A DNA stretch of 27,042 nucleotides from a virus (IMGVR_UViG_2751185961_000011); one strand, 5' to 3'; shown: positions 3,231 to 23,861, counted from the first letter of the stretch. Numbers and translations are program-made. The notes: generated by a model not told the origin, from the sequence alone.

Positions 3231-3445
3231 TCCAGGAATCAACCGTTATCCGGTTCACAGCCAACGGCCGTCAGTACGAGGTAGACGAAAGCCTGATTGA
3301 CCAGGGCATGACACGCCAGGACTCACGCAATTCTGAGATGCATCACATCCGCCTTATCAACGGTTCGCACTTCTGCGCCACGAACATGGAAGAAGTACGC
3401 GTGCTGACAGCAACACGCAATACGGGAGGTAAAGCATGGCAGTGA
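3227..3445 (+). CDS. Hypothetical protein (72 aa)
   Basis: ATGA start/stop overlap with the upstream ORF (translational coupling). No motif recognised. Confidence 0.5.
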   Translation: MIQESTVIRFTANGRQYEVDESLIDQGMTRQDSRNSEMHHIRLINGSHFCATNMEEVRVLTATRNTGGKAWQ

Positions 3446-3786
3446 TTTATATCGCCGGTCCAATGACCGGATACAAAGATCACAACAGAACGGCGTTTTT
3501 CACAGAGGCGATGAGGCTCGCGGCAGACGGGCACGTTGTGCTGAACCCTGCCACGTTGCCGGAAGGATTAAGCCAGCAGCAGTACATGAGCATTTGTATT
3601 CCGATGCTCATGTGTGCCGATGCCATTTACTTACTGGAAGGCTGGGTGGATTCAGCTGGCGCGCGGGCGGAGTACGTAATGGCACTCAAACTGAACATGC
3701 CAGTGTCATTCCCGGAAAACCGGGCAGCCGGCGAAACCGTCGCGCAGCTGCTTCACAAATCAAAAGCCACACAGGCGACTGAGTAA
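3436..3786 (+). CDS. DUF4406-like / nucleoside 2-deoxyribosyltransferase-like small protein
   Basis: N-terminal MAVIYIAGPMTG... pattern is typical of the deoxyribosyltransferase-like fold proteins common in P2-like early regions. 116 aa. Confidence 0.5.
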   Translation: MAVIYIAGPMTGYKDHNRTAFFTEAMRLAADGHVVLNPATLPEGLSQQQYMSICIPMLMCADAIYLLEGWVDSAGARAEYVMALKLNMPVSFPENRAAGETVAQLLHKSKATQATE

Positions 3787-4224
3787 CCGACCGGAGATCG
3801 AAACATGATTGCGCGAAGAGCTACCAACCGTCTCACAGGCTTTATTCCAGGCAAGGTTGATCATGCACTCCATCACGGGGCTGTCACTTTCCTCAACAAA
3901 GGAGAGGCGCGCAATCATGCATTCCGGGGTGAGCACGTGGCGCTGGCTAATCAGTCTTTGATAGCTAAGCGCCTGCCATTCAGCCTTTTCAGCTCTGATA
4001 GAAAGAGAGGAAGCCATGACCTGCCACACCAGAAAGAGCACCACACTGGCGAAAACAAACGTTGCGCTGTCGCAAAAAATGAATGCGGCAACAATCGCAA
4101 GGAAAGCGCTAATCCTCAGAACCAAGGAAGCGCGACGGTGGAGAAGGCTTGTCATGTGTTCAAGCCAGTAGCTGTACCACAGGTCAAAAAGAATTTCGTA
4201 ATCAGAAGGGAGCTTATCACTCAT
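3760..4224 (-). CDS. Putative small membrane protein encoded antisense to the early operon (start uncertain; alternative in-frame start at 4284)
   Basis: Minus-strand ORF with two clear hydrophobic segments (LVLRISAFLAIVAAFIFC and FVFASVVLFLVWQVMASSL). The competing + strand ORF 3805-4911 translates to low-complexity sequence. Confidence 0.4.
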   Translation of the reverse strand: MSDKLPSDYEILFDLWYSYWLEHMTSLLHRRASLVLRISAFLAIVAAFIFCDSATFVFASVVLFLVWQVMASSLSIRAEKAEWQALSYQRLISQRHVLTPECMIARLSFVEESDSPVMECMINLAWNKACETVGSSSRNHVSISGRLLSRLCGF

Positions 4225-4607
4225 CAGAAACACCCCGCGTATGCAGACAATCACCAGTTGCCAGGTGATATTAATTCGCAACATTCTAACCACATCAGCA
4301 CGCAACACAAAAACCGCTTGCCAGCGCTCGTCGTGTCGGGTTACATTTCCGCTGCACCTCATAAAACGGGTGCCGGGTTTCGCAGCCTGCTGACAACCAA
4401 AGCGCACAACCGCGCCAGCGGTTTTTTTGTGCGTACTGTATTGCCACGTCTTTTTCGCGTCAGAATTATGGCGGGGCGTACGGGGCCGACTTCGGTCGGG
4501 CCGGGTTCTTTGGTTGCCGGTACTGCGAACCTCGTACGCCTCGCCACCCACAGTTTCGCAGCTCTGGATGGTGAGTTTTCAAAACTTACAACCAAAGAGG
4601 CCACACC

Positions 4608-4829
4608 ATGGCAAACCGCAAGCAACAGCGCGCCCGCGCTGAGCGTCTTCACATCCGCAGCGAAATCAACCGCAGACTCCATCGGGCTGCATCTGTCGCC
4701 TTTATCATGCAGTCAAACGTATTACACCGACTTAACGACGGTATCGCTGCCGGGTATTACGCGGCAGTCTTCAGCTATCTCGCCGAAGATCTGGCAGAAC
4801 TACAAAGCCTCATCAACCAGCACCGATAA
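4608..4829 (+). CDS. Hypothetical basic protein (73 aa)
   Basis: Strong RBS (AAAGAGG) 7 nt upstream of the ATG. Arg-rich N-terminus. Confidence 0.45.
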   Translation: MANRKQQRARAERLHIRSEINRRLHRAASVAFIMQSNVLHRLNDGIAAGYYAAVFSYLAEDLAELQSLINQHR

Positions 4830-4897
4830 ACCACATCCTGAAGCCATCCCGCACCCGTGCGCGGGAGGCTTCCGCACGTCTGTTACCGGAGGTTCTC

Positions 4898-5089
4898 ATG
4901 AAGAGCGTTAAGGGACTTTCAGATATTCAGGACTTTTTTAACTGGATGTGGGCGGTGGATCCCCTGCTGGCTTCCCGCCTGAACAACTGGCACGACTACT
5001 ACCGCCGCGCTGTAAACAGGCCGCCCGCAGCATCACCACATACGGGGATTTCTCCTTCACCGTTGACGGTCGTTACCGCGTGGACGTGA
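4898..5089 (+). CDS. Hypothetical protein (63 aa); may be the 5' part of a frameshifted gene continuing in 4948-5313
   Basis: GGAGG RBS 5 nt upstream of the ATG. Overlaps the next ORF in a different frame. Confidence 0.35.
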   Translation: MKSVKGLSDIQDFFNWMWAVDPLLASRLNNWHDYYRRAVNRPPAASPHTGISPSPLTVVTAWT

Positions 5090-8353: not shown

Positions 8354-9199
8354 ATGACAAAGCCTTCTCATTTTAGAACCCCTCTTCGTTATCCGGGAGG
8401 TAAGGCAAAATTCTTGCCACATATTGAACAAATACTCCGCAACAATGATCTCATTGGTGGATGTTATGCTGAACCTTATGCAGGTGGAGCCGGTGTAGCA
8501 TTAGGTTTGCTCCTTAACGGTCTTGTTGAAAATATCTTCATAAATGATATTGATCCTGCCCTTTATTCTTTTTGGTTTGCAGTGGTTAATCATAACGATC
8601 TGTTATGTGAAATGATTGATGAAGTTCCTGTGACTATTGAAAATTGGCATACTCAAAAGGAGATACTCCTAAACAATGATAAATATAGTATGCTTGAAGT
8701 CGCATTATCTACTTTCTTTTTAAATAGAACAAACCGTTCAGGAATACTTAAGGCTGGCGTTATTGGAGGGAAAGAACAAAAAGGACCATGGAAGTTAGAT
8801 GCAAGATTCAACAAAAAAGAGTTAATTAAAAGGATTGAACTAATTGGTGCATATAAGGAGAAAATTTACGTATCGAATTTTGATGCTGCAGATTTTCTGC
8901 TACACCAAAAAGCATTACTACCCCAAAATAGTCTAATATATCTTGATCCACCTTATTATGTTAAAGGAGCAGAGTTATATAGAAATTTTTATAAACATGA
9001 TGATCATGTAAAAATCGCTAATACACTACGTGAAATTCAACTACCTTGGGTTGTGTCTTATGACAATGTGCCTGAAATAAAAAGCATATATCATGAATTC
9101 AACATGACTGATTATACGCTTAATTATACTGCACAAGATAAGAAAAAAGGTCTAGAAATTATCATTTATAATCATGGTATAAAAATCCCTGACATTTAA
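8354..9199 (+). CDS. Dam-family (D12-class) N6-adenine DNA methyltransferase, island copy
   Basis: N-terminal PLRYPGGKAKF and AEPYAGGAGVALG (SAM-binding motif I). DPPY catalytic motif at 8945-8956. 281 aa. AT-rich codon usage unlike the rest of the prophage. Confidence 0.85.
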   Translation: MTKPSHFRTPLRYPGGKAKFLPHIEQILRNNDLIGGCYAEPYAGGAGVALGLLLNGLVENIFINDIDPALYSFWFAVVNHNDLLCEMIDEVPVTIENWHTQKEILLNNDKYSMLEVALSTFFLNRTNRSGILKAGVIGGKEQKGPWKLDARFNKKELIKRIELIGAYKEKIYVSNFDAADFLLHQKALLPQNSLIYLDPPYYVKGAELYRNFYKHDDHVKIANTLREIQLPWVVSYDNVPEIKSIYHEFNMTDYTLNYTAQDKKKGLEIIIYNHGIKIPDI

Positions 9200-9216
9200 A
9201 TTTAAGGATGATATAG

Positions 9217-10914
9217 ATGATTAAAGAAATTAGTTTTAAAAAATTTAAGAAACTGATAGATATTGACTTCTCATTCAATGAAGACATCAATATAATATCA
9301 GGAACCAATGGGACATGTAAGACAACATTGCTTCATTTAATTAGCAATGGTTTCCAAATACCACCATCTAGATCACAAAATTATTCAAATAGTAATTGTG
9401 TTAGAGTTATAAAATCTATAAACAAAATAGCCAACCCAAAAATGGAAGCAATTGTTAGGGAATCAAAAAATTACACCGATCCGGCAGAGGGAACAAAAGG
9501 TGTGTTATTTTCTATTAACTATTTGGATCATAGCACACTAGACTTCAGAAAGCACAACTCAAAAAATCCAGACGAAGCGCAACGGTATGCTATCAAACCA
9601 GTATACCCACGCGGAAAAGAAAAACAATCACTTCCAGCTAAACCAGTTTTATATCTTGGATTATCGCGACTATTCCCGATTGGTGAAACTAAAGACGACG
9701 CCCTTACAAAAATTCCGTTAAACCTACCAGAAGAGTATGTTGGTTATATATCGAAAATATATAATGAACTTTTGGGCATTAATATTATAAATATAGAATC
9801 AAACAATATCGGAGATTTTAAAGCTGGCCCATTATTTGATACCGATAACCCAGCAATTGATTCTAATACCATATCATCCGGGGAAGACAATATATTCATT
9901 ATAATCAAGGCATTAGTTAGCCTTAGGTATTATTTTGAATCACTTATTCAATCCACTGATCAAAAAGAAAGCATTCTGTTAATAGATGAATTTGATGCCA
10001 CTTTACATCCTTCTTTACAGATAAGATTATTAGATAAAATTTATCAATACGCAAAAGATTATAAGATTCAAGTATTTTTCACAACGCACAGTCTGACATT
10101 GCTAGAATATGCTTTTCATAAAAAATACCATGTTGTCTATCTAATTAACAATATTACAAAGGCTCTGCTTTTGGATAATCCTGATATATTAAAAATAACA
10201 ATGTATCTGAAAACACAAACAAAGGATGAGATATACACAAGGAACAAGATACCAGTTTTCACGGAAGATGAAGAAGCTCGCTTTTTATTTAATGAAATAC
10301 TTGGTTATTGGATAAGCAAATATCCAAATTTTGCTATAGTTAGTAATTCATTTCACTTAATTGATTGTTTCATTGGTGCAGACAATTTAAAAACTATTTT
10401 TAATGATTCTCATCTTAAGGAAACCTCGTTAAAATCAATTTGTATTCTTGATGGAGATCACAGCCCTGAGGATCAGAGAGGAATTATATCACTGCCGGGT
10501 GAAAAAGCTCCAGAACAATTGATATTTGAGCATTGTGAGCACCTTTATAATACCGACGACTCTTCCTTCTGGGAAAATCAGGATATAATTAACAATGGTT
10601 TTTCGAAAGAGTTATACTTACTCAAGATACGTCCTCAATTACAATCAATTGAAACTGAAATTCAGAAAAGAAAAGACAACCATGAGTCTACATCCGGTTT
10701 AAGAAGAAAATTAAATAAGAAAATATTCAATCAGCATATTGAATTCTTTAGAATGATTACAAGAAACTGGTTAAACAAACCAGAAAATCAGAAATCTCTC
10801 CAGTATTTTTACAATGGATTACGATCCTTATTCTACCGGGTTACACCAACAAACGGCATTGACAGAAAAATTTGGGATTTTGACTATAACAAAATCATTA
10901 AAGAGGATAAATAA
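9217..10914 (+). CDS. OLD-family-like ABC-type ATPase with putative C-terminal TOPRIM nuclease domain
   Basis: Walker A GTNGTCKTT (9301-9327). Walker B LLIDEFD (D-E codons 9985-9990). H-loop-like VFFTTHS. C-terminal acidic motifs VFTEDEE (10255-10275) and ILDGDHS (DGD at 10450-10458) fit the TOPRIM glutamate plus DxD pattern. 565 aa, close to P2 Old in size and in the P2 old locus. AAGGA RBS 7 nt upstream and 17 nt after the methyltransferase stop. Confidence 0.75.
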   Translation: MIKEISFKKFKKLIDIDFSFNEDINIISGTNGTCKTTLLHLISNGFQIPPSRSQNYSNSNCVRVIKSINKIANPKMEAIVRESKNYTDPAEGTKGVLFSINYLDHSTLDFRKHNSKNPDEAQRYAIKPVYPRGKEKQSLPAKPVLYLGLSRLFPIGETKDDALTKIPLNLPEEYVGYISKIYNELLGINIINIESNNIGDFKAGPLFDTDNPAIDSNTISSGEDNIFIIIKALVSLRYYFESLIQSTDQKESILLIDEFDATLHPSLQIRLLDKIYQYAKDYKIQVFFTTHSLTLLEYAFHKKYHVVYLINNITKALLLDNPDILKITMYLKTQTKDEIYTRNKIPVFTEDEEARFLFNEILGYWISKYPNFAIVSNSFHLIDCFIGADNLKTIFNDSHLKETSLKSICILDGDHSPEDQRGIISLPGEKAPEQLIFEHCEHLYNTDDSSFWENQDIINNGFSKELYLLKIRPQLQSIETEIQKRKDNHESTSGLRRKLNKKIFNQHIEFFRMITRNWLNKPENQKSLQYFYNGLRSLFYRVTPTNGIDRKIWDFDYNKIIKEDK

Positions 10915-14370: not shown

Positions 14371-14388
14371 TGTAGCGGTGTTCTTACA
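14371..14388 (+). promoter_or_regulatory. Candidate Ogr/Delta-type late activator site (TGT-N12-ACA) in the divergent P/O intergenic region
   Basis: TGTAGCGGTGTTCTTACA: TGT 14371-14373, 12-nt spacer, ACA 14386-14388, about 73 bp upstream of the O start codon. Confidence 0.35.
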
Positions 14389-18362: not shown

Positions 18363-18885
18363 ACGCTATGCCGTTGCCGCCATCGTGGCGCTGGGTTTTT
18401 CGCTGGCCCCCGGGGAGCTGAGAACCTCACAGGAGGCACAGGAAAAAATTGCCACCTGGGAAGAGTGTCGGGCATTCCCGTACAGGGATATCGCTGGCGT
18501 GAAAACAGTGGGTTGTGGCTCAACGGGAAACGTCCCCGACCGCCACCATACCAAACAGGAAGTTGCCGGTCGATGGGTGAACGATTTACGACGGGCGGAG
18601 AACTGCATCAATCAGAATTTCAATGGCCGCGACATGCCACAGCGCCACTTTGAGGCAATGACGGATGCTGCCTTTAATCTGGGGTGCAAAGGCCTGATGT
18701 GGTTTAAGGGGCGTGACGGGCGGATGCACAGAACAACCATCTGGAAGTACGCACAGAAGCGGAACTGGCACGCGATGTGTGGCAGGCTGACGGATTTTGT
18801 GAACAGCGACGGACGCTATTCACAGGGGCTGTTTAACCGACGCAATGACTTCAGAAACTGGTGTATGAACGGAGTGAAACAATGA
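18346..18885 (+). CDS. K: Endolysin, T4-lysozyme-like (GH24) with N-terminal SAR-like hydrophobic segment
   Basis: E-x8-D-x5-T catalytic spacing in WEECRAFPYRDIAGVKTVGCG. N-terminal YAVAAIVALGFSLAPG hydrophobic stretch. Start chosen at MPGQ (18346) rather than the ORF-track start at 18328. Confidence 0.8.
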   Translation: MPGQIKRYAVAAIVALGFSLAPGELRTSQEAQEKIATWEECRAFPYRDIAGVKTVGCGSTGNVPDRHHTKQEVAGRWVNDLRRAENCINQNFNGRDMPQRHFEAMTDAAFNLGCKGLMWFKGRDGRMHRTTIWKYAQKRNWHAMCGRLTDFVNSDGRYSQGLFNRRNDFRNWCMNGVKQ

Positions 18886-19316
18886 AAACGCCTGCCATGT
18901 TGCTCTGGTTTCTTGCCACCCTGGTGCTTTGTGGTCTGACAGGCTGGGAGGCATACCGCAAAGGGAAGGAAAGTCTCGGACGGGAACAGATGATGGACGT
19001 CATCGAGGACAACCGCGCCGCCATGCAGGAAGTTCGCCATGCATACACAGACTTTTCCAGGGTGATAAACGTGATCCGCATTCTGGACCAGCAACGGATC
19101 ACAGAAGGAGAGCAACGACGTGAAGAAATGCAAAAAGCCGTGCAGGGCGACACGTGTGCCAGCGCTTATCCTCCCGCTGCTGTTACTGAGCGGTTGCAGC
19201 AACACGCCGCACACGTTGAAAACCAGACTCGTTTACGAGCCGGTACCGGAAGCTCTGACGAGACAGACTCCCGTCCCCTTTCTGGAGCCCCCGGTGACCT
19301 GGTACCGAATCACTGA
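18882..19316 (+). CDS. lysB: Rz-like inner-membrane spanin (LysB-like)
   Basis: N-terminal TM segment MKTPAMLLWFLATLVLCGL, then a charged helical region. ATGA overlap with the endolysin stop. Contains the Rz1-like gene in another frame. Confidence 0.65.
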   Translation: MKTPAMLLWFLATLVLCGLTGWEAYRKGKESLGREQMMDVIEDNRAAMQEVRHAYTDFSRVINVIRILDQQRITEGEQRREEMQKAVQGDTCASAYPPAAVTERLQQHAAHVENQTRLRAGTGSSDETDSRPLSGAPGDLVPNH

Positions 19317-19431
19317 ATGGAGTGATCGGTTGCTGAATGCGCTGGATACGTGCAACACAGACAAAGCCGCAATCGCCTGGCTGGACAAACAAAGAGCAGA
19401 ACGGGCGCAAGATGCGCCCCATCAGGAGTAA
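19120..19431 (+). CDS. lysC: Rz1-like outer-membrane lipoprotein spanin (LysC-like)
   Basis: Signal peptide plus lipobox LLLSGC. Proline-rich mature part. Starts in the +1 frame inside lysB and extends beyond it. Confidence 0.7.
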   Translation: MKKCKKPCRATRVPALILPLLLLSGCSNTPHTLKTRLVYEPVPEALTRQTPVPFLEPPVTWYRITEWSDRLLNALDTCNTDKAAIAWLDKQRAERAQDAPHQE

Positions 19432-19434
19432 ACG

Positions 19435-21414
19435 ATGAGCAAAAAACACTTTGAACTGATTACTGCCACCAACCGCGCAGAATTCGCTGAAAAAGTTAAC
19501 AAGCGATTACAGGAAGGCTGGGAACTTCTCGGTAATGCCGGTATTGCATCAGAGCCGGGAGTCCCCTGGTATCTCATGCAGGCTATGGTTTCAGGCAGTG
19601 ATGACCAGGGAGGCACCATTATCACCCCGACATCCGACAGAGAACCGGAGTGGTATTACGTTGTGGTGAGCGCTGGTCAGTCCAACTCTATGGCATACGG
19701 TGAGGGGTTACCTCTCCCGGACAGTTACGATAAACCCGATTCGCGCATTCGCCAGCTGGCACGCCGCAGCACCGTAACCCCGGGCGGAAAAGCCTGTGCC
19801 TATAACGACATCATTCTGGCGGATCACTGCCTGCATGACGTGCAGAATATGAGCCAGTACAACCACCCGAAAGCCGACCTGAACAAAGGTCAGTATGGCT
19901 GTGTGAGTCAGGGATTGCACATTGCGAAGCGCCTGCTGCCATTTATCCCGGCAAATGCGGGGATCCTTCTGGTCCCATGCAGCCGTGGCGGTTCCGGCTT
20001 TACAACCGGTGATGCGGGGCAATTCAGCGAAATCGGCGGCGCAACTGAAAAATCCTGCCGCTGGGGAACGAACACGCCGCTGTACAAGGATTTAATCAGC
20101 CGCACAAAAGCAGCGCTGGCGAAAAATCCGAAAAACGTCCTGCTGGCCGTCTGCTGGACACAGGGCGAGGCAGATCTTGAGAAAGAACAAAACGCCGCAC
20201 AGCATAAAGATCTTTTCACAGCCATGGTGAAGCAGTTCCGGGCTGACCTGGTCGATGTTGCGAAGCAGTGCAACCAGGGCAACCAGGGCAACCCTGAAAG
20301 CGTGCCGTGGATTTGTGGAGATACCACCTACCACTGGAAAAAAACCTACGAAGCACAGTACGCAACCGTGTATGGCGGATACAAAAACAGCACTGAGAAA
20401 AATATTGTTTTTGTGCCTTTTGTTACGGATGAGTACGGGAAAAACACCCCAACAAACGAGCCGACAGAAGATCCGGATATTGCGGAAGCGGGTTATTACG
20501 GTGCCGCATCCCGCAGTAGCGGAAACTGGGTAAGCCATCTGCGTGGAACGCACTTCAGCTCATGGGCCCGCCGGGGCATTATTGCCGATCGCATGGCGTC
20601 AGCAATCCTGCTTAACGTCGGCCGCACGCTGCCATTTATTGCGGGTACAGAGCCGGAACGCGTGGCAAAACCATCACAGGATGCACCGGGCGGCATCAGT
20701 AAGCCATCTTCACCGGAAGCAGAACAACCGGCAGTCAGACCGGGGCCGGTCACGCTCATGAGTCTGCTGGCATCATCTCCTGAACTGGAAAGCCAGGGCT
20801 GGACGCTGAGCGAAGGCAAAAACGGGGCCAACACACCAAAACAACTGAAAGACACGCTGATCGGTGATGAGGAAGCAACAGGGAAAAAAGCCCTGAAACT
20901 GACCAAACAGGAAGGCAATACCTGGTATCTGGAGCATAAGGCCGGTAATGGTGCTGACCTTCTGAAAAATGGCGGGACTGTAAGTTGCCGATTCAAAATC
21001 GAGGGTGAGCTGAAAAAAGACCAGTACGCAATGGCGATGTACTGGAAAACATCAGCATTACCGCAGGATGTGAAATTACTGGGGGCAGATCCAAATAATT
21101 TATTGCTCTCATTCTTTCTTCAGACAGACAGCGCAAACCTGAATCTGATGTATCACAAAACGCCAAACGAACAACTGGGAACCTTTGGTCAGTTCAATAA
21201 CAACTGGCACACCATAGCGTTTCGTTTTGCGGGAAACAACAGCACCCAGGTAACACCGGTTCTGGATGGCGTGGACGGAAAACCGTTCATGCTTTCCACA
21301 TCAAAAGCCGATGTTACCAACGACACGTTACGCGTGACCGATATCACGTATCGGCCGACCTATACCGTACTGATTGACAGCCTGAGCGTTGTCGTAAATC
21401 AGCCACCGGCATAA
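19435..21414 (+). CDS. NanS-p-like protein: N-terminal DUF1737-like domain, SGNH-type sialate O-acetylesterase domain, C-terminal putative carbohydrate-binding domain
   Basis: 659 aa. SGNH block I motif in YYVVVSAGQSNSMAYGEG. N-terminal MSKKHFELITATNRAEFAEKVNKRLQEGWELLG resembles the DUF1737 leader of prophage NanS-p esterases. AGGAG RBS. Confidence 0.65.
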   Translation: MSKKHFELITATNRAEFAEKVNKRLQEGWELLGNAGIASEPGVPWYLMQAMVSGSDDQGGTIITPTSDREPEWYYVVVSAGQSNSMAYGEGLPLPDSYDKPDSRIRQLARRSTVTPGGKACAYNDIILADHCLHDVQNMSQYNHPKADLNKGQYGCVSQGLHIAKRLLPFIPANAGILLVPCSRGGSGFTTGDAGQFSEIGGATEKSCRWGTNTPLYKDLISRTKAALAKNPKNVLLAVCWTQGEADLEKEQNAAQHKDLFTAMVKQFRADLVDVAKQCNQGNQGNPESVPWICGDTTYHWKKTYEAQYATVYGGYKNSTEKNIVFVPFVTDEYGKNTPTNEPTEDPDIAEAGYYGAASRSSGNWVSHLRGTHFSSWARRGIIADRMASAILLNVGRTLPFIAGTEPERVAKPSQDAPGGISKPSSPEAEQPAVRPGPVTLMSLLASSPELESQGWTLSEGKNGANTPKQLKDTLIGDEEATGKKALKLTKQEGNTWYLEHKAGNGADLLKNGGTVSCRFKIEGELKKDQYAMAMYWKTSALPQDVKLLGADPNNLLLSFFLQTDSANLNLMYHKTPNEQLGTFGQFNNNWHTIAFRFAGNNSTQVTPVLDGVDGKPFMLSTSKADVTNDTLRVTDITYRPTYTVLIDSLSVVVNQPPA

Positions 21415-21419
21415 CAATG

Positions 21420-21443
21420 CTTCCCCGCCATCCGGCGGGGAAG
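21420..21443 (+). other. Hairpin immediately after the esterase stop
   Basis: CTTCCCCGCC (21420-21429), loop ATCC, GGCGGGGAAG (21434-21443). No T-run follows. Confidence 0.4.
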
Positions 21444-21479
21444 CTCGCTGACAACCGGGAAAATAAAAGGAGCAAGCCA

Positions 21480-21644
21480 TGGGATTTATTCATCAGATAA
21501 TGTTGTATTTCAGTACCGCCGTATCCCTTCTGTATCTGATCTCAGGGGGATATAAAGCCGTCCGCAATTTCTGGAACAAAAAGATAGATGAAGCAGCCGC
21601 CAGGAAATCAGCTGGCGGAGCGGTCAACGGGGTATTGCCATAAC
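21480..21644 (+). CDS. Small hydrophobic protein (54 aa)
   Basis: Own translation: MGFIHQIMLYFSTAVSLLYLISGGYKAVRNFWNKKIDEAAARKSAGGAVNGVLP. Strong RBS AAAGGAG 7 nt upstream. Below the cutoff of the supplied ORF track. Confidence 0.4.
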
Positions 21645-21685
21645 AACAGGCACAGCGCATCAGAACGGCACCACTGTCCACAGCA

Positions 21686-21718
21686 AAAGAAACAAAAAAC
21701 CCTCCGGTATACGGAGGG
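21686..21718 (-). terminator. Intrinsic-terminator-like hairpin with U-tract when read on the minus strand
   Basis: Stem CCCTCCG (21700-21706) / CGGAGGG (21712-21718), loop GTATA, flanked on the + strand by an A-rich run (21686-21699) that becomes a U-tract on the minus-strand transcript. Confidence 0.4.
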
Positions 21719-21815
21719 TGCAAGAGGGGAAAGGTGAGCAAGAAAGAACCCGAATTAAAAGCCATTTAATTTTGAGATTTTTAATTGCCACACGCAACAC
21801 GTTCTACGGTGTTTT

Positions 21816-22286
21816 ATGCTGAAACTGAATTCATTACGCGAAGCTCTGACCAGCAACTGCCGGTGGTGTAAGGCCAGCCCGGAAAAATTCACGGTATTCA
21901 TTGAATCGGGTGGCATTGAAACCACCGGTGAATCCCCCTCATTCCTGTACCGCTACAACCTGGTGTTGTTCGTCATGGACTTCACAGAAAGTATCGACAA
22001 CATCATGCTGCCGGTCATGGCGTGGCTCTACAGGAATCAGCCGGATCTTCTTCTCAATCCGGAGAAGAACAAAAGCATCAAATTTTCGACGGCCATCAAC
22101 GATGACGACAGTGCCGATATCCTGCTGGAAATCCCGGTATGGGAGCGCGTGATTGTGCGCCGTAATGACGACGGCACGGTGACGGCAGAGCACATCGGTG
22201 AGCCCCCGATAAGCCGGGCACTGGAAGCATGGCGCGTAGTGTTTGAAGACATGACGTGGCGAACCGGAACGGAGACCAGCACATGA
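21816..22286 (+). CDS. R: Tail completion protein (P2 gpR-like)
   Basis: 156 aa (P2 R is about 155 aa). Position before S and V. Confidence 0.72.
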   Translation: MLKLNSLREALTSNCRWCKASPEKFTVFIESGGIETTGESPSFLYRYNLVLFVMDFTESIDNIMLPVMAWLYRNQPDLLLNPEKNKSIKFSTAINDDDSADILLEIPVWERVIVRRNDDGTVTAEHIGEPPISRALEAWRVVFEDMTWRTGTETST

Positions 22287-22918
22287 GAGCGGACCGCGAA
22301 CTGGATGTCATCTTTCAGGATATTCTTTCCGGCCTGTCGGCAGCCGGAATTCAGCGCACGGCAATGAGCGTGGGTAAGGTCGTCCGACAGCTACAGACAA
22401 AACGCATCAGAAGCCAGGTATCCCCGGAAGGCCAGCCATGGGAGAAACGAAAACGCCGCATCATGCGCATACAAAAAGGCGTGAAGTTTATCTGGAAGGA
22501 CGGCCAGGTAAGAAACCTGAAAAACTGGAGCACGTCACAGGGATGTTTCGGGCAGAAAATCACCGGCTACGATACAGACGCCGGGGGGATCAGGACGTTT
22601 TACAAGGCAGACATCGGGGACTACCTGGAAATTAACACACAGCGCGTCGCAGCAAGAGCATCACGTCGCTCACCTATGTTCGAAAAGCTGAGAACAGCAC
22701 GCTTTCTGAGAATCATCCCCGACACAAACGGCGTAAGTGTCGGCTTTCAGGGCCGGGCCGCGCGTATTGCCAGAGTGCACCAGTTCGGTGAGGTGGGCCT
22801 GGTATCACCCGGGAACGCCACGAAATACCCCGTGCGCGAGCTGCTGGGCCTGAACGAAAAAGACAAACAGCAAATCACAGAAACCGTGATTGCCGGACTG
22901 GGGAAAGCAGCGAAATGA
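22283..22918 (+). CDS. S: Tail completion / virion morphogenesis protein (P2 gpS-like)
   Basis: ATG at 22283 overlaps the R stop (ATGA). 211 aa. Position between R and V. Confidence 0.72.
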   Translation: MRADRELDVIFQDILSGLSAAGIQRTAMSVGKVVRQLQTKRIRSQVSPEGQPWEKRKRRIMRIQKGVKFIWKDGQVRNLKNWSTSQGCFGQKITGYDTDAGGIRTFYKADIGDYLEINTQRVAARASRRSPMFEKLRTARFLRIIPDTNGVSVGFQGRAARIARVHQFGEVGLVSPGNATKYPVRELLGLNEKDKQQITETVIAGLGKAAK

Positions 22919-23496
22919 ACATCGAGCTTATGCGTCTGCTGGAAAACATTGTGCGGATTGGTGTGGTTACGGAAATCAACACCGACACCTGGGAGGTGCG
23001 TGTGCAGACCGGCGGCCTGACCACAAACTGGATCCGATGGAACAGCGGGCGGGCCGGAAAATTTAAAATCTGGATCCCCCCATCACCGGACGAACAGGTG
23101 TTTCTCCTATGCCCGGGCGGCAATCCGGAAACCGCAGTCAGCGCAGGAAGTCTGTACAGCAACGACAACCCGCCACCGGGATCGCTGGAAAACGAAATGG
23201 TCATTACCGCGCCGGACGGTGCGGAATTTCGCTATAACGCACAGGAAAGCAGCCTGACGGCCAGAGGTATAAAAACCGCAACCATTACGGCTGAAACCAG
23301 TATCACGCTGGACGCGCCAAAGGTGGAATGTACGCAGTTGCTGAAGACAAAGACATTCGAGCTGACCAGCGGCGGAACAATGAAAGGCAACGTGAAACAC
23401 AGTGGCGGCAGCCTCGAATCAAACGGCATCACCGTACACACCCACGTACACAGCGGAGTGAAGAGCGGTAGCGATACGAGCGGAGGCCCACAATGA
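22915..23496 (+). CDS. V: Baseplate spike / assembly protein V
   Basis: 193 aa at the gpV position. ATGA coupling to S. Confidence 0.82.
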   Translation: MNIELMRLLENIVRIGVVTEINTDTWEVRVQTGGLTTNWIRWNSGRAGKFKIWIPPSPDEQVFLLCPGGNPETAVSAGSLYSNDNPPPGSLENEMVITAPDGAEFRYNAQESSLTARGIKTATITAETSITLDAPKVECTQLLKTKTFELTSGGTMKGNVKHSGGSLESNGITVHTHVHSGVKSGSDTSGGPQ

Positions 23497-23861
23497 GTAC
23501 CGGCTACACAGGCATGAATCACGCAGGCTACGGAACGCTGACAGACATCGACCATCTGAACCAGTCAATCACGGATATTATCCTGACACCGGAAGGTTCG
23601 CGTGTTATGCGGCGCGAGTATGGCAGCAACCTGCCCGCTCTTCTTGACAGTCCGGCAAATGAAATAACCAGACTGCGCTGTATGAGTGCCGCCGTGATCG
23701 CCATTACACGATGGGAGCCACGCGTTGCCATAAACAGCGTGGACCTGACGTGGAGAAACAATGGCAGCGCAGTGTTATCCATGAGCTATCTGATTGTAAG
23801 CACCATGCAGAGCGCCAGTATTTCCGTTGATATACAGGGAGGGAAGGATGCCGACAATTGA
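23493..23861 (+). CDS. W: Baseplate assembly protein W (gp25-like)
   Basis: 122 aa (P2 W is about 115 aa). ATGA overlap with V. Confidence 0.8.
   Translation: MSTGYTGMNHAGYGTLTDIDHLNQSITDIILTPEGSRVMRREYGSNLPALLDSPANEITRLRCMSAAVIAITRWEPRVAINSVDLTWRNNGSAVLSMSYLIVSTMQSASISVDIQGGKDADN

What the first reader, a model, noticed from the sequence alone, without database searches (positions are those of the whole stretch)
21415..21815. Moron boundary: hairpin, strongly initiated 54-aa hydrophobic ORF, and a minus-strand terminator-like element inside the late operon
A 10-bp-stem hairpin lies directly after the esterase (21420-21443). A small ORF with an AAAGGAG RBS (21480-21644) encodes a peptide with one hydrophobic segment. 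A hairpin at 21700-21718 has the U-tract on the minus strand although no minus-strand gene is annotated to its right. This could mark an unannotated antisense or small RNA transcript around 21720-21815, or a bidirectional terminator insulating the moron from R and S.
Basis: seen in the sequence. Interest (0 to 1): 0.4.

Follow-up and report, generated by a model that had tools for sequence, protein, structure and literature searches.

The report
Candidate small-RNA gene beside prophage esterase
The backwards-facing terminator at the edge of a sialate-esterase insertion in this P2-like E. coli prophage most likely ends an unannotated ~70-nt small RNA gene of the kind known to sit next to the same esterase in lambda-like prophages; this is a modest addition to a known class, not a new kind of element.

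Summary
All three features are real. Hairpin 1 is at 21419-21444. The 54-aa ORF (21479-21643, AAGGAG RBS) is a bona fide DUF1378 gene. Hairpin 2 (21699-21719) with its T-tract on the minus strand is the only canonical intrinsic terminator in the whole 27-kb window.

The region is the right end of a 2.4-kb insertion (NanS-p-type esterase plus DUF1378) between lysC and tail gene R of a P2-like prophage.

In every related locus examined, lambdoid or P2-like, a terminator on the strand opposite the esterase abuts its stop codon and is preceded by a promoter-like site. In EPEC these units are the validated Hfq-dependent sRNAs PasA and PasC.

A profile built from three P2-like relatives, window excluded, matches 21797-21694 (minus) end to end (E=7e-7). 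Conserved columns cluster in a -35/-10 pair (TTGCGT-N17-CAAAAT) and the terminator.

I therefore read it as a ~70-nt convergent sRNA gene (about 21763 to 21694), displaced here to lie after DUF1378. It has no direct sequence similarity to PasA/PasC, its promoter is weak, and expression is untested.

The "bidirectional terminator" reading fails: neither hairpin has a plus-strand U-tract, and no Ogr-type promoter site precedes R.

The parts
19435..21414 (+). 659-aa NanS-p-type sialate O-acetylesterase (DUF1737 + SASA + DUF6645). It is the main cargo of the insertion and starts 3 nt after the lysC stop (19431).
   Evidence: Pfam hits; phrog_143; RefSeq annotation. lysC abuts R in most other E. 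coli P2-like prophages.
21419..21444 (.). Hairpin 1: 11-bp GC-rich stem with a 4-nt loop, 4 nt after the esterase stop. No U-tract on the plus strand and only a degenerate one (AUUGUUAU) on the minus strand. Possibly the scar of a deleted sRNA unit.
   Evidence: dG -24.9, z -5.8. The stem SNP at 21426 breaks a pair in all other copies. Weak match to the terminator part of the L007-9 profile, E=0.079.
21449..21454 (-). TTGTCA on the minus strand, 4 nt upstream of hairpin 1 and 24 nt from the DUF1378 ATG. This is the position where relatives carry the -35 TTGACA of the convergent unit, so it is a possible promoter relic.
   Evidence: Read and compared with the promoter positions. Inference only.
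21467..21472 (+). Shine-Dalgarno sequence AAGGAG, 6 nt upstream of the DUF1378 start codon.
21479..21643 (+). 54-aa DUF1378 family protein with one N-terminal hydrophobic helix and a basic tail. In lambdoid prophages the family sits between the esterase and DUF826/holin.
   Evidence: Pfam PF07125 at 74.8 bits; phrog_494; RefSeq WP_001537165.1; lambdoid context.
21694..21719 (-). Intrinsic terminator on the minus strand: stem 21719-21712 paired with 21706-21699, loop 21711-21707. The U-tract is 21699-21694 if 21699 is read as tract rather than as the last stem pair. It is the only canonical terminator in the window.
21694..21763 (-). Predicted small RNA of about 70 nt, transcribed right to left: GGCUUUUAAUUCGGGUUCUUUCUUGCUCACCUUUCCCCUCUUGC followed by the terminator hairpin and U6. 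The 5' part is CU-rich and largely unpaired.
   Evidence: Coordinates and fold. End-to-end profile match from relatives (E=6.8e-7). Smith-Waterman z 7-9 to L007/L008/L009. The 5' end is inferred from the -10 element, not mapped.
21769..21774 (-). Putative -10 hexamer CAAAAT. Relatives have CAGAAT; PasA and PasC have CAGAAA.
   Evidence: Invariant columns C45, A46, A48, A49, T50 of alignment A5; coordinates.
21792..21797 (-). Putative -35 hexamer TTGCGT, 17 nt from the -10 element and 18 nt upstream (in plus-strand terms) of the R start codon.
   Evidence: Invariant columns T22, T23, G24, G26, T27 of A5; promoter search; coordinates.
21782..21815 (+). Leader of R, homologous to the R leader of L009/L034/L046 (ctgccatacacaacaaacagacggtgtttttATG). 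It marks the right edge of the insertion.
21816..22286 (+). P2 gpR tail completion protein, the first backbone gene after the insertion.
   Evidence: Pfam P2_Phage_GpR, E=9e-41.

Best explanation
The interval is the right-hand end of a 2.4-kb cargo module, a NanS-p-type sialate esterase plus DUF1378, sitting between lysC and R in the late operon of a P2-like E. coli prophage. The same three-part module occurs downstream of stx/Q in lambdoid prophages, so the two phage types share it.

The 54-aa ORF is a genuine, translated DUF1378 membrane peptide, read as part of the rightward late transcript.

The minus-strand terminator at 21719-21694 is the 3' end of a small, independently transcribed gene on the opposite strand. 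Its sigma-70-type promoter is TTGCGT (21797-21792), a 17-nt spacer, then CAAAAT (21774-21769). The start is near 21763 and the RNA is about 70 nt, with a CU-rich unpaired 5' part, a GC-rich terminator hairpin and a U-tract.

This is the P2-like counterpart of the convergent Hfq-dependent sRNAs (PasA, PasC) that accompany the same esterase gene in lambdoid prophages. Unlike the Ogr-dependent late genes, it would be made in the lysogen. It would act as a base-pairing RNA on host or prophage mRNAs. During lytic growth it would also be perfectly antisense to the late mRNA 58-122 nt upstream of the R start codon.

The terminator stops this RNA from running antisense into DUF1378 and the esterase. 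Because it has no plus-strand U-tract, rightward late transcription reaches R, S and the baseplate genes unhindered.

Shown: the anatomy, the homology to relatives, the conservation pattern and the positional equivalence to PasA/PasC. Inferred: transcription, the 5' end, Hfq dependence and targets.

Hairpin 1 is probably a leftover terminator from a second, internally deleted unit, or a neutral 3' hairpin.
For: (1) Insertion. lysC abuts R in most of the listed E. coli P2-like prophages and in more distant relatives. A sub-lineage carries esterase with or without DUF1378 at this site.

(2) Module origin. Six lambdoid prophage loci from E. coli genomes and one Stx1c phage all show esterase, a 115-165-nt gap, then DUF1378, followed by DUF826 and (in five of the seven) a holin.

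(3) General rule. In 11 of 11 distinct related loci a T-run of at least 6 on the strand opposite the esterase ends within -2 to +8 nt of the esterase stop. It is preceded 70-110 nt upstream by TTGAC(A/T/C)-N17/18-TAAAAA or TTG(T/C)GT-N17-CAGAAT, always 15-26 nt from the next gene's ATG.

(4) In EPEC E2348/69 these positions are PasA (minus strand, 743499-743415; esterase stop 743265) and PasC (1290909-1290832; esterase stop 1290830). Both were validated by Northern blot, RNA-seq and RIL-seq and are destabilised without Hfq. Zhu et al. 2026 describe an "esterase-PasA-holin-lysozyme" arrangement. Tree et al. 2014 describe convergent sRNAs at lambdoid moron sites.

(5) A profile HMM from L007, L008 and L009, window excluded, matches window 21797-21694 (minus) over model positions 3-101 of about 103, E=6.8e-7. 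Smith-Waterman z-scores are 7.2-8.6.

(6) In the 4-sequence alignment, invariant columns cluster in the two hexamers and the terminator, while the RNA body varies.

(7) It is the only canonical terminator in 27 kb, with 0 in 40 randomisations.

(8) The unit survives where DUF1378 is a frameshifted pseudogene (L009, L034, L046).
Against: There is no expression data of any kind.

The promoter is weak (7 of 12 consensus positions) and falls below the threshold of the promoter scan.

The -35 block also lies inside an R leader that is conserved in L009 for other reasons, so its conservation is not independent evidence.

Only four diverged sequences of this sub-family exist. The terminator stem core never varies, so there is no covariation support.

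A profile of lambdoid, PasA and PasC units alone does not detect the window element (best E above 1). The similarity chain to PasC passes through one weak link of z about 3.

Rfam has no match.

The U-tract is only 6 nt, which is borderline for Hfq binding.

Unlike every relative, the unit here does not abut the esterase.

No convincing trans target exists inside the window.
Confidence: 0.55

Rival explanations
1. Decaying relic. The unit descends from an esterase-associated sRNA gene but is no longer expressed or useful in P2-like phages. The terminator and hexamers persist only because the lineage is young.
For: The promoter hexamers are much weaker than the TTGACA-N17/18-TAAAAA of lambdoid units. 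Hairpin 1 looks like an already deleted unit. All 14 E. coli copies and 8 contig copies are identical in this stretch, so there is no within-type evidence of selection. The unit has lost its normal position next to the esterase.
Against: Four sequences that differ at about 40% of body positions still keep both hexamers, the 17-nt spacing and a perfect GC-rich stem with at least 6 T. The unit is retained where the neighbouring DUF1378 has decayed.
Confidence: 0.2
2. Pure antisense insulator. The minus-strand terminator exists only to stop stray leftward transcription from entering the esterase and late operon. No discrete RNA product matters.
For: It is a strong unidirectional terminator facing leftward traffic. 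Its position at the edge of a horizontally acquired module fits a boundary element.
Against: All genes for at least 12 kb to the right are on the plus strand, so there is no obvious source of leftward transcription. A conserved promoter-like site lies at a fixed distance upstream. In lambdoid equivalents the terminated product is an abundant Hfq-bound sRNA.
Confidence: 0.08
3. Plus-strand RNA element. One or both hairpins act on the late mRNA as a bidirectional or partial terminator, or as 3' stabilisers or processing sites that set esterase/DUF1378 levels apart from R and S.
For: Both hairpins are very stable on the plus strand too (-24.9 and -16.4 kcal/mol). Each sits just after or between ORFs.
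Against: There is no U-tract after either stem on the plus strand (tails UCGCUGAC and GCAAGAGG). No Ogr-type promoter precedes R, so termination would be lethal for the phage. The common allele of hairpin 1 has a broken pair. The conserved A-tract upstream of hairpin 2 only makes sense on the minus strand.
Confidence: 0.07
4. Type I toxin-antitoxin-like pair. DUF1378 is a small membrane toxin and the adjacent small RNA represses it, as in tisB/istR or zorO/orzO, where the sRNA gene is divergent from the toxin gene.
For: DUF1378 is a 54-60-aa single-helix hydrophobic peptide. In the canonical arrangement the sRNA promoter lies back to back with the DUF1378 start, and the sRNA is antisense to the mRNA just upstream of its RBS.
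Against: In this window the RNA lies downstream of DUF1378 and does not overlap its 5' region, yet DUF1378 is intact with a strong RBS. Predicted pairing with its translation initiation region is unremarkable and worse than shuffled controls elsewhere. PasA and PasC loci have no DUF1378. DUF1378 decays while the RNA unit stays (L009/L034).
Confidence: 0.05

Closest known systems
PasA and PasC, Hfq-dependent sRNAs of lambdoid prophages PP2 and PP5 of EPEC E2348/69 (Pearl Mizrahi et al. 2021, PMC8550237; Zhu, Shabalina and Storz 2026, doi 10.64898/2026.05.13.724894; EHEC homologues EcOnc51/52)
   Same: A small gene on the strand opposite a SASA/NanS-p esterase, inside the same esterase-containing cargo module. 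RNA of about 70-85 nt ending in a GC-rich intrinsic terminator with a U-tract. A sigma-70-type promoter with a CA(G/A)AA(A/T) -10 element at the standard distance. In the window's closest homologues (L007-L009) the terminator abuts the esterase stop exactly as in PasC.
   Different: No detectable direct sequence similarity (nhmmer E above 1, Smith-Waterman z below 1). The host phage is P2-like, not lambdoid. The unit sits inside an Ogr-dependent late operon just upstream of tail gene R, separated from the esterase by DUF1378. The -35 element is much weaker. Expression and Hfq binding are untested.
Convergent sRNAs at lambdoid moron insertion sites: AgvB and AsxR anti-sRNAs (Tree et al. 2014, PMC4104026; Rfam RF02702, RF02703)
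   Same: Short (51-60 nt) prophage sRNAs encoded between a moron CDS and the next phage ORF, oriented against the late transcript and ending at intrinsic terminators.
   Different: They lie downstream of PR'/stx rather than next to the esterase 3' end. Rfam models give no match in 21350-21900 even at E up to 10.
Stx-phage nanS-p region: stx, nanS-p, DUF1378, DUF826, holin S (described in PMC10462455)
   Same: The same three-domain esterase, followed by the same DUF1378 small ORF, in the same order and orientation.
   Different: Here the module is transplanted between lysC and R of a P2-like phage. DUF826 and the lambdoid holin are absent, and the order of the sRNA unit and DUF1378 is swapped.
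Classical Hendrix-type moron (a gene flanked by its own promoter and terminator)
   Same: Extra DNA inserted between two genes that are adjacent in relatives, carrying lysogen-relevant cargo.
   Different: The protein-coding cargo has no plus-strand terminator and no recognisable promoter of its own. It is embedded in, and presumably read with, the late operon. The only autonomous-looking transcription unit is the small one on the opposite strand.

Membership tests
PasA/PasC esterase-associated prophage sRNAs | Encoded on the strand opposite the SASA/NanS-p esterase gene (convergent) | tested here: met
   The esterase is on the plus strand; the terminator and promoter-like hexamers are on the minus strand. 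PasA and PasC have directionality '> < >'.
PasA/PasC esterase-associated prophage sRNAs | Lies in the intergenic region immediately downstream of the esterase, with the terminator next to its stop codon | tested here: not met
   In the window the unit is 280 nt beyond the esterase stop, after DUF1378. The feature is met in its homologues L007, L008 and L009, where the T-run ends 1-8 nt from the stop.
PasA/PasC esterase-associated prophage sRNAs | [quoted passage not shown] | tested here: met
   A 7-8-bp GC-rich stem plus U6; the only strict terminator in the window.
PasA/PasC esterase-associated prophage sRNAs | Sequence or profile similarity to PasA/PasC variants | tested here: not met
   An nhmmer profile of 11 lambdoid, PasA and PasC units gives no hit at the locus (best E above 1). 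Smith-Waterman z is 0.2-0.8 against PasA, PasC and the PasC-like unit. The only link is an indirect chain: window to L008/9 (z 7-9), to L032 (z about 3), to L040 (z 8), and separately L037 to PasC (z 4.9).
PasA/PasC esterase-associated prophage sRNAs | Own promoter giving an RNA of about 80 nt | tested here: inconclusive
   TTGCGT-N17-CAAAAT predicts an RNA of about 70 nt. The hexamers are invariant among 4 diverged relatives but match only 7 of 12 consensus positions and are not called by the scan.
PasA/PasC esterase-associated prophage sRNAs | Expressed, and stabilised or bound by Hfq | not testable with these tools
   Needs a Northern blot or RNA-seq with and without hfq, or RIL-seq/CLASH.
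AgvB/AsxR anti-sRNAs (RF02702, RF02703) and isrJ (RF01393) | Covariance-model score at or above the gathering threshold | tested here: not met
   No AgvB or AsxR hit in 21350-21900 at E up to 10. isrJ scores 18.5 bits against a gathering score of 37 at 21393-21444.
DUF1378 (PF07125) | Pfam profile score above the gathering cut-off | tested here: met
   74.8 bits against a cut-off of 25, E=6e-21, residues 1-45; phrog_494, E=2e-23.
Rho-independent terminator acting on the plus (late-operon) strand | GC-rich hairpin immediately followed by a U-tract on that strand | tested here: not met
   The plus-strand tails are UCGCUGAC (hairpin 1) and GCAAGAGG (hairpin 2). There were no plus-strand hits in the strict scan.
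Hendrix-type moron | Insertion between two genes that are adjacent in related phages | tested here: met
   lysC abuts R in other P2-like prophages. Here 19432 to about 21781 intervenes.
Hendrix-type moron | Cargo gene flanked by its own promoter and same-strand terminator | tested here: not met
   No plus-strand promoter-like site lies upstream of the esterase or DUF1378 (the only one called in 19500-23500 is inside the esterase gene), and there is no plus-strand terminator.
Type I toxin-antitoxin | Antitoxin RNA complementary to the toxin mRNA 5' region or RBS | tested here: not met
   The RNA does not overlap the DUF1378 mRNA 5' region in the window. The duplex with its translation initiation region (-20.3) is weaker than the best sites obtained with shuffled RNAs.

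The most novel reading that the evidence does not exclude
The NanS-p esterase travels between unrelated temperate phage types (lambdoid and P2-like) as a three-part cassette: esterase, a convergent sRNA and DUF1378. The sRNA gene is the most persistently retained partner. It is kept when DUF1378 decays, kept when DUF1378 is reshuffled, and always held in antisense orientation. That would imply a functional coupling between the sRNA and the esterase or the host's sialic-acid physiology. It would also mean the PasA/PasC class is much broader than BLAST-based surveys show and extends into P2-like prophages of commensal and extraintestinal E. coli.
Probability: 0.3. Interest if true: 0.55.

Novelty: new variant of a known kind. 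Interest (0 to 1): 0.35.

Why it matters
If transcribed, this would be an unannotated prophage sRNA. It is carried by at least 14 of 5,426 complete E. coli genomes in exactly this form, and by further genomes in the diverged L007, L009, L010 and L032 forms.

It would extend the esterase-associated PasA/PasC class from lambdoid prophages of EPEC and EHEC to P2-like prophages. It would also show that sequence searches under-count the class, because promoter, terminator and position are conserved while the RNA body changes quickly.

For annotation, it explains an otherwise puzzling backwards terminator inside a late operon. It also shows that the insertion is built so as not to be polar on essential tail genes.

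It does not reveal a new mechanism.

Tried and rejected
- Rfam, whole window at gathering thresholds and 21350-21900 at E up to 10: nothing relevant. There was only a sub-threshold isrJ hit on hairpin 1.
- Megablast and blastn against 50,697 phage genomes: no match for 18800-23500 by megablast. Blastn of 21415-21830 found only a 130-nt DUF1378 match.
- Minus-strand ORFs (46 aa at 21660-21800, 90 aa at 21493-21765): they run through the terminator, lack an RBS and are not conserved in L008, so they were rejected.
- A late (Ogr-type) promoter in front of R: there is no TGT-N12-ACA between 14388 and 25391.
- A plus-strand sigma-70 promoter for DUF1378 or R in the spacer: only weak, non-conserved candidates by eye, and none in the scan.
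- Trans targets of the predicted RNA within the window, including the DUF1378 and R initiation regions: no site beats shuffled controls.
- Widening the data set. An alignment of esterase C-termini was too divergent to search with. The genome-contig scan with gpR returned only three relatives, none with the insertion. The metagenome scan returned only the four types already known. IMG/VR scans with DUF1378 and the esterase C-termini added only one unexamined DUF1378-bearing locus (L022) and a near-identical copy of the L010 type (L030).
- Covariation in the terminator stem: the core CCCTCCG/CGGAGGG is invariant in all four relatives, so it is uninformative.

Full report
**1. What the window is**

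The window is a P2-like prophage of E. coli. A RefSeq chromosome that is 100% identical over 21380-21860 (strain SW070917, prophage next to serS) shows this order: capsid genes, X, holin, lysozyme, LysB, LysC, a "DUF6645 domain-containing protein", a "DUF1378 family protein", then tail and baseplate genes R, S, V, W, J. Pfam confirms LysC (19120-19431), gpR (21816-22286) and a 659-aa protein with DUF1737 + SASA + DUF6645. That is the three-domain architecture of the NanS-p sialate O-acetylesterases of Stx phages (PMC10462455).

Only 14 of 5,426 complete E. coli genomes hold 21380-21860, all at 99.6% identity or more. No deposited phage genome matches at the DNA level, apart from a short DUF1378 stretch.

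**2. The observation**

All three features are present, one base off for the ORF.

- Hairpin 1 (21419-21444) has 11 bp, dG -24.9 kcal/mol and z -5.8.
- The ORF (21479-21643) has AAGGAG 6 nt upstream of its ATG.
- Hairpin 2 (21699-21719) has 8 bp and z about -4.2. It has an A-run before it on the plus strand, which is a T-run after it on the minus strand.

The generic terminator scan is not discriminating (7 found, 6.7 expected). I therefore applied a strict definition: perfect stem of at least 7 bp with at least 5 GC, loop 3-8, T-rich tail. Hairpin 2 on the minus strand is the single hit in 27 kb on either strand, and 40 randomised sequences gave none.

Hairpin 1 carries a caveat. Every other independent copy I hold (4 IMG/VR and 4 metagenome contigs) has A at 21426, which breaks one stem pair. 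This is the only polymorphism in about 400 nt.

**3. It is a moron boundary**

In the listed rows of the E. coli search, R mostly abuts or overlaps lysC. In Citrobacter youngae, Edwardsiella piscicida and Trabulsiella, R follows lysC directly or after about 100 nt. So 19432 to about 21781 is an insertion.

The last 34 nt before R (21782-21815) align with the R leader of relatives L009, L034 and L046.

A sub-lineage of E. coli P2-like prophages carries diverged versions of the same insertion: L007, L008, L009/L034, L010/L033 and L032.

**4. Where the cargo comes from**

In a Stx1c phage and in six lambdoid prophages the order is always esterase, a 115-165-nt gap, then DUF1378 and DUF826, followed in most of them by holin and lysozyme. 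The P2-like phages therefore carry the left part of a lambdoid late-region module.

DUF1378 is a real family: PF07125 at 74.8 bits and phrog_494. Its function is unknown. It is frameshifted in L009, L034 and L046, so it is dispensable.

**5. The key comparison**

I read the gap after the esterase on the opposite strand in 11 distinct loci. In each one a T-run of at least 6, preceded by a GC-rich hairpin, ends within -2 to +8 nt of the esterase stop.

In each one a promoter-like site also lies 70-110 nt upstream. In lambdoid types, L032 and L033 it is TTGAC(A/T/C)-N17/18-TAAAAA. In L007-L009 it is TTG(T/C)GT-N17-CAGAAT. The -35 element always lies 15-26 nt from the ATG of the next gene.

This is a complete small transcription unit, convergent with the esterase.

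**6. What such units are known to be**

Table S6 of Pearl Mizrahi et al. 2021 places PasA on the minus strand of NC_011601 at 743499-743415, with a minor 236-nt form ending at 743264. It places PasC at 1290909-1290832, with the orientation "> < >".

I fetched both loci. The flanking plus-strand genes are SASA esterases ending at 743265 and 1290830. The sequences show TTGACA-N18-CAGAAA, then 5 nt to the reported 5' end, and a terminator that abuts the esterase stop. PP2 has a second, PasC-like unit that explains the minor form.

PasA and PasC were confirmed by Northern blot, are less stable without Hfq, and have many RIL-seq partners. [quoted passage not shown] Tree et al. (2014) had earlier noted convergent sRNAs at moron sites of EHEC prophages.

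**7. Is the window's element one of these units?**

A profile HMM built from L007, L008 and L009 only matches window 21797-21694 on the minus strand across the whole model, E=6.8e-7. Pairwise Smith-Waterman z-scores against shuffles are 7.2-8.6.

In the four-sequence alignment the invariant columns cluster in TTG.GT, CA.AAT and the terminator, while the body varies.

The window coordinates are: -35 at 21797-21792, -10 at 21774-21769, a start near 21763, the terminator stem at 21719-21699, and U6 ending at 21694. This gives an RNA of about 70 nt whose 5' 44 nt are CU-rich and mostly unpaired.

So the element is homologous to the esterase-adjacent units of its relatives, but it sits in a different place, after DUF1378 and directly upstream of R.

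The junction sequence gccacacgcaa|cacgttctacggtgttttATG looks like a hybrid. It resembles the DUF1378 leader of L009 (cacacgcaa) joined to its R leader (acggtgtttttATG). The window's esterase loses DNA similarity to L007 and L009 beyond 20610. I infer a mosaic history in which the esterase C-terminus, hairpin 1 and DUF1378 were swapped in to the left of a pre-existing sRNA unit. That is inference, not demonstration.

**8. Limits**

Direct similarity to PasA and PasC is absent: a profile of 11 lambdoid and Pas units does not find the locus, and z is below 1. The only link is a chain through L032, with one step at z about 3.

The promoter matches 7 of 12 consensus positions and is not called by the scan. 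Its -35 element lies inside a leader that is also conserved in L009 in front of R.

The terminator core never varies, so covariation says nothing.

Rfam has no match. No target inside the window beats shuffled controls.

Expression is untested. I put 0.55 on "a transcribed convergent sRNA gene" and 0.2 on "a relic of one".

**9. Why not a bidirectional terminator**

Neither hairpin has a plus-strand U-tract.

From established knowledge of P2, late operons start at Ogr-dependent promoters with TGT-N12-ACA near -55, and R and S belong to the operon that starts at O.

Here the only such motif near the late genes is at 14371-14388, in the divergent terminase/scaffold gap. There is none between 14388 and 25391. 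Genes from 14425 onward are packed on the plus strand.

A plus-strand terminator at 21444 or 21719 would therefore abolish R, S and baseplate expression. The one-sided design, an A-run before the stem and purines after it, is what lets late transcription through while stopping the opposite strand.

**10. Hairpin 1**

It abuts the esterase stop where relatives have the sRNA terminator. It weakly matches the terminator part of the L007-9 profile (E=0.079). Its minus-strand tail is AUUGUUAU. On the minus strand TTGTCA sits 4 nt before it, 24 nt from the DUF1378 ATG, which is the position of the -35 element in relatives.

I read it as the scar of a unit that lost its body, with low confidence. The common allele has a mismatch in the stem, which argues against strong structural selection.

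**11. Verdict**

The element is best described as a P2-like-phage variant of the known esterase-associated convergent prophage sRNA genes. It is useful for annotation and for the evolution of Pas-type sRNAs, but it is not a new kind of system.

Noticed in passing
window 4354-4551 (+): Rfam gathering-level hits to isrK (4354-4428, 65.9 bits) and C4 antisense RNA (4464-4551, 85.7 bits) in tandem. They lie inside a mechanical 368-aa ORF (3805-4911) whose residues 180-271 match the Ash family. This looks like a P1 immI / Gifsy isrK-type RNA-controlled switch in the early region.
   Followed up: partly
window 8354-10914 (+): A D12-class adenine methyltransferase (8354-9199) is followed by a 565-aa AAA_15/AAA_21 ATPase (9217-10914), between the replication gene and the portal. 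This is the classical variable (old/tin) slot of P2-like phages, so it may be a defence or anti-defence cargo.
   Followed up: partly
window 21426: This is the only polymorphic site in about 400 nt among all copies. The window and its source genome have C (perfect 11-bp stem). Eight other independent contigs have A (an A.G mismatch in hairpin 1).
   Followed up: yes
L009 3818-3880, L034 3330-3392 and L046: DUF1378 is truncated to about 20 codons in these P2-like relatives, while the adjacent convergent promoter-terminator unit is intact.
   Followed up: yes
L015 (NC_011601 743265-743415, minus strand): E2348/69 prophage PP2 has a second, PasC-like promoter-terminator unit between PasA and the esterase stop. 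This accounts for the published 236-nt minor PasA form that ends at 743264.
   Followed up: partly
L035/L036/L038 and L039/L040/L032, gap after the esterase: At least two further sequence types of esterase-convergent units (TTGACA-N17/18-TAAAAA plus a strong terminator) have little similarity to PasA or PasC (z below 4). BLAST-based Pas surveys would probably miss them.
   Followed up: partly
L009 3786-3800 and 3973-3987: Short similar blocks (ccatcacacgcaa and ccatacacaacaa) lie upstream of DUF1378 and upstream of R. They are possible recombination substrates that would explain the gain, loss or relocation of DUF1378.
   Followed up: no
L023 and L024, about 3400-3500: In the Citrobacter and Edwardsiella relatives that lack the insertion, the roughly 100-nt lysC-R gap holds a hydrophobic mini-ORF of about 31 codons (…TLFDFIAEHPFWTLIYLLIIA…).
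   Followed up: no
L001 33693-33833: A Hok/Gef family toxin gene lies at the prophage end, next to ogr, in the RefSeq record carrying this prophage.
   Followed up: no
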